In this document: piece after piece, positions 25,477 through 26,006 of the stretch
Layout: each line of letters opens with the position of its first letter
Position numbering within the stretch: position 1 is the stretch's first letter
Origin: a virus
Lineage: Duplodnaviria > Heunggongvirae > Uroviricota > Caudoviricetes
DNA length: 64,000 nt
Direction: 5' to 3' (one strand)
IMG/VR virus record: IMGVR_UViG_3300015177_000008
Location: 32,001 to 96,000 of that record
Program-made: the position numbers and the translations under genes
The notes under the pieces: model-generated
What the model was told of the DNA's origin: nothing
Seen by the model: the letters and a program-made list of their open reading frames with translations, nothing else
The model's database searches: none

Positions 25477-26006
25477 CTAATTACAGACGCCAGAACAAAC
25501 TAAGCAGCCTTCTTTGATGGTCTTTTTTTTTCTGACCACATTCGCAGGATCATACCCTCCCAGACTTTTCATGACGTCCAAAGGGATCTTGCTTATAGAG
25601 TGCCCAGCGTCCTGACAGAATCCTCGAAAAACAACGAGCATACTGCCACCGGGGTTGATGTTTACTTCTACCTGACCCAGATTGACGTCAGGCTCGACAA
25701 ACGCTACGCGGCCACCAGACAGAATAATCGTCTCATTCGCACACTCTGTTGCACGCTCATACCACTTTGTATCTAGGGATTGAGGAAGGCAATTGTACCT
25801 GGCTGTCCCCATTCAGATTTCAAAGCATCACGCTCAACGCCTATGAAATTAGGCAGCTTTGCATTGTCCTTGTTGCAGGCAACGTCAACATCAAATGTCA
25901 CTCCAAGATAACGTTGAATGGCAGAAAACAGCCAGTCAGGTGTTCTCCAGAGGTCACGAAGAGAGTTGTCGCGCTTTCGCTGTTTGATTTTTTCGGCTGC
26001 AATCAT
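25477..26006 (-). pseudogene. Phage Dam-family-like DNA methyltransferase, disrupted by a frameshift/stop
   Basis: ORF 25773-26006 (LRDLWRTPDWLF..., ends AFLNP then TAG) continues in another frame as ORF 25477-25812 (LDTKWYERA...). Confidence 0.4.

What the first reader, a model, noticed from the sequence alone, without database searches (positions are those of the whole stretch)
25477..26006. Second methyltransferase-like gene (phage Dam family) also disrupted
ORF 25773-26006 (RDLWRTPDWLF...AFLNP then TAG) continues in another frame as ORF 25477-25812 (LDTKWYERA...). Two interrupted methyltransferases in one element may reflect systematic indel errors, which would lower confidence in other frame calls, or genuine decay of methylation functions.
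Basis: partly seen in the sequence, partly recalled or inferred. Interest (0 to 1): 0.4.

Follow-up and report, generated by a model that had tools for sequence, protein, structure and literature searches.

The report
Dead phage Dam methyltransferase gene
This is a recently killed copy of a small phage DNA adenine methyltransferase gene on an E. coli phage-plasmid, broken by a real 88-base deletion between two 11-base repeats, not by sequencing error; it is an ordinary pseudogene that public annotation already flags.

Summary
On the minus strand, ORF 26006-25773 and ORF 25812-25477 match consecutive parts of the phage Dam family (PF05869 profile 5-67 and 94-162). The break is not a one-base frameshift. 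Compared with intact 594-bp orthologues in sister SSU5-like phage-plasmids, the window lacks exactly 88 bp (29 codons plus 1 nt). The missing stretch lies between two copies of TTCCTCAATCC, which is the signature of a slipped-strand deletion. It removes the PY of the catalytic NPPY motif and shifts the frame. A second lesion adds one A to a homopolymer (A9 instead of 8 nt) 11 codons before the ancestral stop. The identical allele occurs in two RefSeq plasmids (Mali, Thailand), both annotated as frameshifted pseudogenes, and in a human-gut metagenome contig. 205 of 207 related E. coli records keep the deleted segment. The other methyltransferase (DUF4942, 18937-20623) carries a +1 A frameshift found only in those same two plasmid records. 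Of 54 ORFs shared with an intact relative, only these two are split, and the window's private indels are few and intergenic. Systematic indel error is therefore rejected and genuine lineage-specific decay is supported. Whether losing both methyltransferases was neutral or selected remains open. Interest is low.

The parts
25500..26006 (-). Full extent of the Dam-family pseudogene, from the ancestral ATG at 26006 to the ancestral TAG at 25502..25500. It is 507 bp against 594 bp in intact orthologues.
   Evidence: Alignment A1 with phages Cyrano and PhiR41_1. RefSeq PGAP annotates the identical allele as 'DNA N-6-adenine-methyltransferase, frameshifted' pseudogene in NZ_CP117002.1 and NZ_JBTZOT010000003.1.
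25773..26006 (-). N-terminal fragment ORF (77 aa), ending AFLNP plus TAG. It retains the N-terminal conserved region but only the N-P of the NPPY motif.
   Evidence: PF05869 60.4 bits, profile 5-67. TIGR01712 49.7 bits, profile 7-68.
25477..25812 (-). C-terminal remnant ORF in a different frame. The homologous part starts at Leu (CTA, 25776..25774). The last 15 residues of the translation are a non-ancestral tail created by the extra A.
   Evidence: PF05869 30.0 bits, profile 94-162. Alignment A1.
25777..25787 (-). The single surviving copy of the 11-bp direct repeat TTCCTCAATCC, which marks the deletion junction. Intact relatives have two copies, at gene nt 220 and 308, 88 bp apart.
25523..25531 (-). 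A9 homopolymer. Relatives read or listed have 8 nt here (A8 or GA7). This is a second +1 frameshift, 11 codons before the ancestral stop.
   Evidence: Only 2 of 207 E. coli records match the window exactly here; the 23 other listed records all span 75 nt against 76.
26036..26064 (-). Sigma-70-like promoter match (TTGCCA, 17 nt, AAAAAT, with TG) just upstream of the pseudogene. A purine-rich GAGAGAGAAG lies in front of the ATG. The remnant may still be transcribed.
   Evidence: a consensus match only; the count is not above shuffled expectation. Sequence.
18937..20623 (-). The other interrupted methyltransferase: a DUF4942 plus C-terminal NPPY-type m6A methyltransferase gene. It is frameshifted by +1 in an A5 to A6 run (T6 on the + strand at 19695..19700), upstream of the catalytic domain.

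Best explanation
The locus is a recently inactivated orphan DNA N6-adenine methyltransferase gene of the small phage Dam family (PF05869 / TIGR01712). It sits on an SSU5/pHCM2-like E. coli phage-plasmid.

Shown: the ancestral 594-bp gene carries two copies of TTCCTCAATCC 88 bp apart. In this lineage one copy and the spacer were lost. This is the classical signature of replication slippage, also called microhomology-mediated deletion.

Shown: because 88 = 29x3+1, the deletion removes residues PYSKISPWIDAAIREQARGVTTVMLIPQS, including the PY of the catalytic NPPY motif. It also shifts the frame, so translation stops at once (AFLNP-TAG). A separate +1 A in an A-run shifts the frame again near the 3' end.

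Inferred: neither fragment can methylate DNA.

Shown: the allele is real and inherited. It is identical in four independent data sets. It is young, since only 2 other nucleotide differences separate the remnant from the closest intact allele. The element's other methyltransferase (DUF4942 family) is killed by a +1 A frameshift in the two complete plasmids of the lineage as well as in the window.

Inferred: in intact relatives the enzyme methylates phage-plasmid DNA. The target is most plausibly GATC, as for characterised gammaproteobacterial phage Dam-like enzymes. Its role would be protection from restriction, or support of replication and packaging, during infection of new hosts.

Inferred: in a lineage kept mainly as a plasmid in dam+ E. 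coli this function is dispensable, so the genes decay under relaxed selection.
For: Family assignment. The intact orthologue scores 131.8 bits on PF05869 over profile 5-160, and 113.9 bits on TIGR01712 against a cut-off of 97.05.

Deletion anatomy: alignment A1; repeats at gene nt 220 and 308 in three intact relatives, and only 2 substitutions against the pAVS0223-B allele.

Reality of the allele: 100% identical in one piece in NZ_CP117002.1 (Mali, stool) and NZ_JBTZOT010000003.1 (Thailand, blood), both annotated as pseudogenes. The window is neither record. Human-gut metagenome contig OXVH01000937.1 (57.8x coverage) matches window 22329-27980 with 1 mismatch and 0 gaps, including the deletion and A9.

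Rarity: the 88-bp segment is present in 205 of 207 E. coli records. The A9 run and the DUF4942 A6 run occur only in the same 2 records.

Not error-prone sequence: the window differs from the Thai plasmid by 2 one-base indels in about 51 kb, both intergenic. Only Dam and DUF4942 are split among 54 ORFs shared with pAVS0223-B.

Role of small NPPY phage methyltransferases and host-mimicking specificity: PMC7556043 and PMC5537653.
Against: No activity, methylome or expression data exist for this gene or its intact orthologue. The target sequence (GATC) is inferred from relatives that are only about 39% identical or less, and the same small NPPY family includes GANTC-specific enzymes.

The relaxed-selection reading is not demonstrated. 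The gene is intact in about 99% of relatives, which argues that it normally matters. Both methyltransferases of the element being the only split genes is a non-random-looking pattern that could also mean selection for loss.

Raw reads of the window's own assembly were not available.
Confidence: 0.9

Rival explanations
1. Adaptive loss. Both orphan methyltransferases were inactivated because their methylation was harmful in this lineage's hosts, for example by triggering methylation-dependent (Type IV-like) restriction or disturbing host gene regulation or replication. Their co-loss is then selected, not neutral.
For: The only two genes split among 54 shared ORFs are the element's only two recognisable DNA methyltransferases. 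My own rough length-weighted estimate for two random hits landing in exactly these two genes is of order 2e-4 to 1e-3. Both lesions are confined to the same lineage. That lineage is found in Mali, in Thailand and in a human-gut metagenome sample, so it persists and spreads without them.
Against: The pattern was noticed after the fact. Many other genes are probably essential for plasmid maintenance, which shrinks the effective target set. No methylation-dependent defence system was examined in the hosts. The DUF4942 gene was detected in only 156 of the 207 related records, so it is accessory anyway. The complete Mali and Thai records each carry a further pseudogene in a tail or fibre gene, which fits general decay better.
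Confidence: 0.2
2. Sequencing or assembly artefact. The gene is intact in the real molecule, and the frame break comes from indel errors or a collapsed repeat.
For: One of the lesions (A9 against A8) and the DUF4942 lesion (A6 against A5) lie in homopolymers, the typical site of long-read errors.
Against: The main lesion is 88 bp long and bounded by 11-bp repeats, which are too short to collapse in assembly. All three lesions are identical in two independently sequenced RefSeq plasmids. The deletion and A9 are also in a 57.8x metagenome contig named in SPAdes style. Private indels in the window are rare and intergenic.
Confidence: 0.02
3. A functional split enzyme. The two ORFs are separately translated and assemble into an active methyltransferase, or the frame is restored by programmed frameshifting.
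For: A promoter-like site and a purine-rich ribosome-binding region are retained upstream. The C-terminal ORF has an in-frame ATG at 25812.
Against: The PY of NPPY and about 27 following residues are absent from both ORFs, so no recoding can recover them. The fragments score 49.7 and 24.9 bits against a TIGR01712 cut-off of 97.05. In 205 of 207 relatives the 88-bp segment that joins the two parts is present. No Shine-Dalgarno-like sequence precedes the internal ATG.
Confidence: 0.02

Closest known systems
Phage N-6-adenine-methyltransferase, TIGR01712 / Pfam PF05869 (small phage Dam-like enzymes such as those of Stx/VT-2 phages, HP1 and T1-like phages)
   Same: The intact orthologue (WP_000559568.1, 197 aa) is a full-length member: 113.9 bits on TIGR01712 and 131.8 bits on PF05869, with an NPPY motif. 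The window's fragments match the N- and C-terminal parts of the same profiles. Homologues occur in 2119 phage records, and Stx-converting phages are about 39% identical.
   Different: The window copy lacks profile positions 68-93, including the PY of NPPY. It is frameshifted twice and fails the TIGR01712 cut-off. The specificity of the SSU5-type enzyme has not been determined. No solved structure is detectable by sequence.
Intact orthologues in SSU5-like E. coli phage-plasmids (phage Cyrano OV696614 CYRAN_79, PhiR41_1, CMS-2020a, pAVS0223-B)
   Same: Same position between the 269-aa hypothetical gene and the 76-aa gene upstream of rnhA. Nucleotide identity is 96-99% over 901 bp.
   Different: Those copies are 594 bp with both repeat copies and an 8-nt run. 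The window copy has the 88-bp deletion and A9.
Short-direct-repeat (slipped-strand, RecA-independent) deletions, as described for E. coli lacI and plasmid substrates
   Same: The deleted segment equals one repeat copy plus the spacer between two identical 11-bp direct repeats, and one copy is retained at the junction.
   Different: Nothing distinguishes this case. The mechanism is inferred from the end product, not observed.
Phase-variable methyltransferases (phasevarions)
   Same: Two of the three lesions in the element's methyltransferase genes are single-base changes in poly-A runs.
   Different: The tracts are short (A5/A6 and A8/A9). The A9 and A6 lengths are the same in every carrier sequence that covers them and occur in no other E. 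coli record. The Dam tract lies in the last 11 codons. The main lesion is an irreversible deletion.

Membership tests
Pfam PF05869 Dam / NCBIfam TIGR01712 phage N-6-adenine-methyltransferase | Profile match above the curated cut-off | tested here: inconclusive
   Pfam: both fragments pass (60.4 and 30.0 bits against 28.1). TIGR01712 equivalog: the fragments score 49.7 and 24.9 bits against 97.05 and fail, while the intact orthologue scores 113.9 bits and passes. Homology is therefore certain, but membership as a functional equivalog is not met.
Pfam PF05869 Dam / NCBIfam TIGR01712 phage N-6-adenine-methyltransferase | Catalytic motif IV (D/N)PP(Y/F/W) | tested here: not met
   The window reads ...AFLNP then TAG. 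The intact relatives read ...AFLNPPYSKISPW... The PY and 27 further residues lie in the deleted 88 bp.
Pfam PF05869 Dam / NCBIfam TIGR01712 phage N-6-adenine-methyltransferase | Single uninterrupted ORF covering the whole domain (about 165-170 profile positions) | tested here: not met
   Two ORFs in different frames. Profile positions 68-93 are absent.
Pfam PF05869 Dam / NCBIfam TIGR01712 phage N-6-adenine-methyltransferase | m6A methyltransferase activity on a defined target (GATC in characterised enterobacterial phage members) | not testable with these tools
   This needs a DpnI/MboI protection assay or SMRT/ONT methylome data. The literature gives GATC or GANTC for different small NPPY phage enzymes.
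Slipped-strand / microhomology-mediated deletion | The ancestral sequence has two identical short direct repeats, and the derived allele keeps one copy and loses the other plus the spacer | tested here: met
   TTCCTCAATCC sits at gene nt 220 and 308 in Cyrano, PhiR41_1 and pAVS0223-B. The window has a single copy at 25787..25777, and the gap is exactly 88 bp.
Sequencing or assembly artefact | The lesion is private to one assembly, and many other frame-breaking indels are present | tested here: not met
   The same allele is in 2 RefSeq plasmids and 1 metagenome contig. Only 2 of 54 shared ORFs are split. Private indels are intergenic.
Phase-variable (contingency) methyltransferase | Tract length varies among close relatives and switches the ORF on and off; the tract lies early in the ORF | tested here: not met
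   A9 occurs in every carrier sequence and in no other E. coli record (0 of 205). The tract is 11 codons from the stop. The gene is in any case irreversibly deleted.
SSU5/pHCM2-like phage-plasmid (the context of the gene) | Collinear backbone shared with sequenced phages of the group, plus a plasmid replication gene | tested here: met
   96-98% nucleotide identity and the same gene order as phages Cyrano, PhiR41_1 and CMS-2020a. The near-identical plasmids carry RepB, ParB, terminase, portal, capsid and tail genes.

The most novel reading that the evidence does not exclude
The joint inactivation of the element's only two DNA methyltransferases was selected rather than neutral. In this reading a phage-plasmid lineage shed its DNA-methylation functions, for example to escape methylation-dependent host defences, and then spread between continents without them. 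This would be a natural example of anti-restriction methylation becoming a liability for a temperate phage-plasmid.
Probability: 0.15. Interest if true: 0.4.

Novelty: already known. Interest (0 to 1): 0.12.

Why it matters
The practical value is quality control. The two broken methyltransferase genes are real mutations, so they give no reason to distrust other frame calls in this window. Biologically this is one more recent pseudogene in a mobile element, and it shows clearly how an 11-bp repeat inside a gene can delete its catalytic motif. Loss of both methyltransferases in one phage-plasmid lineage, which persists in human-associated E. coli from Mali and Thailand, is a small lead. It could be used to ask whether orphan phage methyltransferases become dispensable, or costly, when a phage-plasmid lives mainly as a plasmid.

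Tried and rejected
1. A simple 1-nt frameshift at 25770-25815 is rejected. Alignment shows an 88-bp deletion.

2. I first took the window to be NZ_CP117002.1. This is rejected. It is 99.7-99.8% identical from 6347 onward and divergent in the first 6 kb. It is closest to the Thai plasmid (99.97%) but lacks that plasmid's IS3 copies. The source record was not found in the collections.

3. The C-to-A change that creates the TAG is not a new mutation. The closest intact relative, pAVS0223-B, already has CTA (Leu) there, and the change is synonymous in the ancestral frame.

4. Junction-specific pattern scans found no carriers in IMG/VR viral contigs or in GTDB species representatives. One was found in metagenomes.

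5. A sequence search of the intact orthologue against PDB chains gave no hit at E<=1. I did not run a structure prediction because it would not change the verdict.

6. Literature searches for PF05869 and for SSU5 phage-plasmid methyltransferases or pseudogenes found no study of this gene.

7. I tried to fetch host chromosomes to test whether the Mali and Thai hosts are clonal. The accessions I guessed were wrong and I dropped this.

8. Rfam over the whole window found nothing near the locus.

Full report
**What is in the sequence.**
The finding lies on the minus strand. ORF 26006..25773 encodes 77 aa (MIAAEKIKQRKRDNSLRDLWRTPDWLF...GTIAFLNP) and stops at the TAG at 25775..25773. ORF 25812..25477 (111 aa) reads ...LDTKWYERATECANETIILSGGRVAFVEPD... 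in another frame.
- Both ORFs match Pfam PF05869 (DNA N-6-adenine-methyltransferase, Dam) above the gathering score of 28.1 bits. The N fragment scores 60.4 bits (E 2.3e-16, profile 5-67). The C fragment scores 30.0 bits (E 5.1e-7, profile 94-162).
- They also match NCBIfam TIGR01712 (phage N-6-adenine-methyltransferase) at 49.7 and 24.9 bits. That is well below the equivalog cut-off of 97.05.
Profile positions 68-93 are missing, however, so this is more than a frame change.

**Context.**
The window is part of an SSU5/pHCM2-like E. coli phage-plasmid of about 108 kb.
- The 901 bp around the locus match phages Cyrano, PhiR41_1 and CMS-2020a at 96-98%.
- They also match 177 PLSDB plasmids and 207 records from complete E. 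coli genomes, almost all of them plasmids.
- In these relatives the gene is a single 594-bp ORF, annotated 'Adenine methyltransferase' or 'phage N-6-adenine-methyltransferase'. It lies between a 269-aa hypothetical gene and a 76-aa gene upstream of rnhA.
- The intact 197-aa product from pAVS0223-B scores 131.8 bits on PF05869 over profile 5-160 and 113.9 bits on TIGR01712. It reads ...TIAFLNPPYSKISPWIDAAIREQARGVTTVMLIPQSLDTKWYERA....

**Anatomy of the lesion.**
- Alignment with Cyrano and PhiR41_1 shows that the window lacks exactly 88 bp.
- In three intact relatives the 11-mer TTCCTCAATCC occurs twice, at gene nt 220 and 308, which is 88 bp apart. The window keeps one copy (25787..25777) and has lost the other plus the spacer. 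This is the standard product of slipped-strand, microhomology-mediated deletion. The mechanism is inferred from the end product and rests on established knowledge.
- Because 88 = 29 codons + 1 nt, the deletion removes PYSKISPWIDAAIREQARGVTTVMLIPQS, which includes the PY of the catalytic NPPY motif. It also shifts the frame so that TAG follows at once.
- The A in that TAG is not a new mutation. The closest intact relative also has CTA (Leu) there.
- A second lesion is an extra A in a homopolymer: A9 at 25531..25523, against A8 or GA7 in relatives. It shifts the frame again 11 codons before the ancestral stop at 25502..25500, and it explains why the second ORF runs on to 25477.
- Apart from these two indels, the remnant differs from the pAVS0223-B allele at only two nucleotides. 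The inactivation is therefore recent.

**Real mutation or error?**
- The identical allele (100% over 901 bp, in one piece) is present in p108_MLI108-3 (NZ_CP117002.1; stool, Mali) and in a plasmid of strain UID2309220033 (NZ_JBTZOT010000003.1; blood, Thailand). PGAP annotates it as a frameshifted pseudogene in both.
- The window is neither record. It is 99.97% identical to the Thai plasmid but lacks that plasmid's IS3 copies. It is 99.7-99.8% identical to the Mali plasmid, with a divergent first 6 kb.
- A junction-specific pattern found no carriers in IMG/VR or in GTDB representatives. It found one human-gut metagenome contig (OXVH01000937.1, 5652 bp, coverage 57.8). That contig equals window 22329-27980 with one mismatch and no gaps, including the deletion and A9.
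- That makes four independent data sets with the same allele. An 11-bp repeat is too short to be collapsed by an assembler. The lesion is genuine.

**How common is it?**
The 88-bp segment is present in 205 of the 207 E. coli records, and the two lacking it are the Mali and Thai plasmids. Exact matches to the A9 region are the same two records. The two-ORF state is therefore not conserved. It is a rare, lineage-specific allele.

**The other methyltransferase and the indel-error question.**
- The gene at 18937..20623 (minus strand) encodes a DUF4942 protein (PF13708, 74.1 bits in the intact 561-aa orthologue). Its C-terminus carries clear m6A methyltransferase motifs: LLEPQAGRGDLL and IVMNPPYS.
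- In the window it is frameshifted by one extra A (A6 against A5; T6 at 19695..19700 on the + strand), upstream of the catalytic domain.
- The Mali and Thai plasmids carry the same frameshift. Exact matches to this region occur only in those two records among the 156 that have the gene.
- Elsewhere the window differs from the Thai plasmid by only two single-base indels in about 51 kb, at 20674 and 50125. By the coordinates of the Mali annotation both are intergenic.
- In an ORF-by-ORF comparison with pAVS0223-B, Dam and DUF4942 are the only genes split by an internal frame break among 54 shared ORFs. The other length differences are antisense ORFs, upstream stop-to-stop extensions, or the 5'-truncated S24/HumD gene at a mosaic boundary.
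- Systematic indel error is rejected, and other frame calls in this window need not be distrusted.

**How it most likely works, or worked.**
- Shown: the intact gene is a full-length member of the small phage Dam family. The family is widespread, with homologues in 2119 phage records, including Stx-converting phages at about 39% identity and T1-like phages at about 30%.
- From the literature: small NPPY-type phage methyltransferases typically copy the specificity of the host's regulatory methyltransferase. This is GATC in many gammaproteobacterial phages and GANTC in alphaproteobacterial ones. [quoted passage not shown]
- Inferred: the SSU5-type enzyme methylates the element's DNA, probably at GATC, when host Dam cannot keep up or when the phage enters new hosts. 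The window allele is catalytically dead because motif IV is gone.
- A promoter-like site (26064 to 26036) and a purine-rich leader remain. A 77-aa fragment may still be made, but it has no plausible activity.

**Why both methyltransferases?**
I favour relaxed selection in a lineage living mostly as a plasmid in dam+ hosts.
- The two complete plasmids each carry a further pseudogene in a different tail or fibre gene, and the Thai plasmid has IS3 insertions.
- DUF4942 was not detected in about a quarter of the relatives.
- Against this, the gene is intact in about 99% of relatives, and both frame-broken genes being the only two methyltransferases looks non-random. My own rough length-weighted estimate is 2e-4 to 1e-3, computed after noticing the pattern.
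- Selected loss, for example escape from methylation-dependent defences, therefore cannot be excluded. I give it about 0.15-0.2.

**Comparison with what is known, and verdict.**
The family, the deletion mechanism and the pseudogene status of this exact allele are all already known or annotated. Homology to PF05869/TIGR01712 is certain. Membership as a functional enzyme fails on the catalytic motif, ORF integrity and the equivalog score. Phase variation fails because the tract lengths are the same in every carrier sequence and the deletion is irreversible. No solved structure is detectable by sequence, and no paper in the library discusses this gene. This is an ordinary, genuine, recent pseudogene. 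Interest is low, apart from the modest lead about loss of both methyltransferases.

Noticed in passing
window 18937-20623 (-): DUF4942-family methyltransferase pseudogene (+1 A, T6 at 19695-19700 on the + strand). The downstream ORF 19758..18937 starts with ATG and still contains the whole C-terminal NPPY methyltransferase domain, so internal initiation could in principle still give a catalytic fragment. The region around the frameshift is only 91-93% identical to every other listed E. coli record.
   Followed up: partly
window 20674, 50125, 61305-61312: Single-base length differences in poly-A runs between the window and its near-identical Thai and Mali relatives. All are intergenic. The one at 20674 lies about 50 nt upstream of the DUF4942 start and is private to the window (A6 against A5 in Thai, Mali and pAVS0223-B).
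   Followed up: partly
window 52998-53416 (+): Full-length Rfam cspA thermoregulator (RF01766, 185.7 bits) on the phage-plasmid, next to the plasmid-borne cold-shock gene (cspG in the Mali annotation). In the Thai plasmid an IS3 element sits beside this gene.
   Followed up: no
window 12323-17056 (-): A truncated S24/HumD (UmuD-like) gene (312 bp against 390 bp in pAVS0223-B) adjoins a 4.2-kb inverse-autotransporter (intimin/invasin-like) gene plus MarR and PerC regulators. This accessory block replaces a different set of small genes in pAVS0223-B.
   Followed up: no
window 8993-12285: Host-like metG (methionine-tRNA ligase) and apbC genes are carried on the phage-plasmid. Further on lie dfrA51 (29632-30108), thymidylate synthase and nrdAB, forming a nucleotide-metabolism module.
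   Followed up: no
window 1-6346: The first 6.3 kb match the Thai plasmid at 99.97% but are only 86-97% identical and rearranged relative to the Mali plasmid. The lineage is therefore mosaic, with recombination after the methyltransferase lesions arose.
   Followed up: partly
L006 37295-39181 (Mali) and L008 1226-1922 (Thai): Each complete plasmid of the lineage has a different additional pseudogene in a tail or fibre gene: a head-spike/fibre gene missing its N-terminus in the Mali plasmid, and a frameshifted minor tail protein L in the Thai plasmid. This may mean the lineage is losing phage function, or it may be assembly error in those records.
   Followed up: no
window about 46553-48892 (-) (Mali record 4413-6752): A 780-aa protein annotated as a LAGLIDADG family homing endonuclease. 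It is unusually large and may be an intein-containing or fused gene.
   Followed up: no
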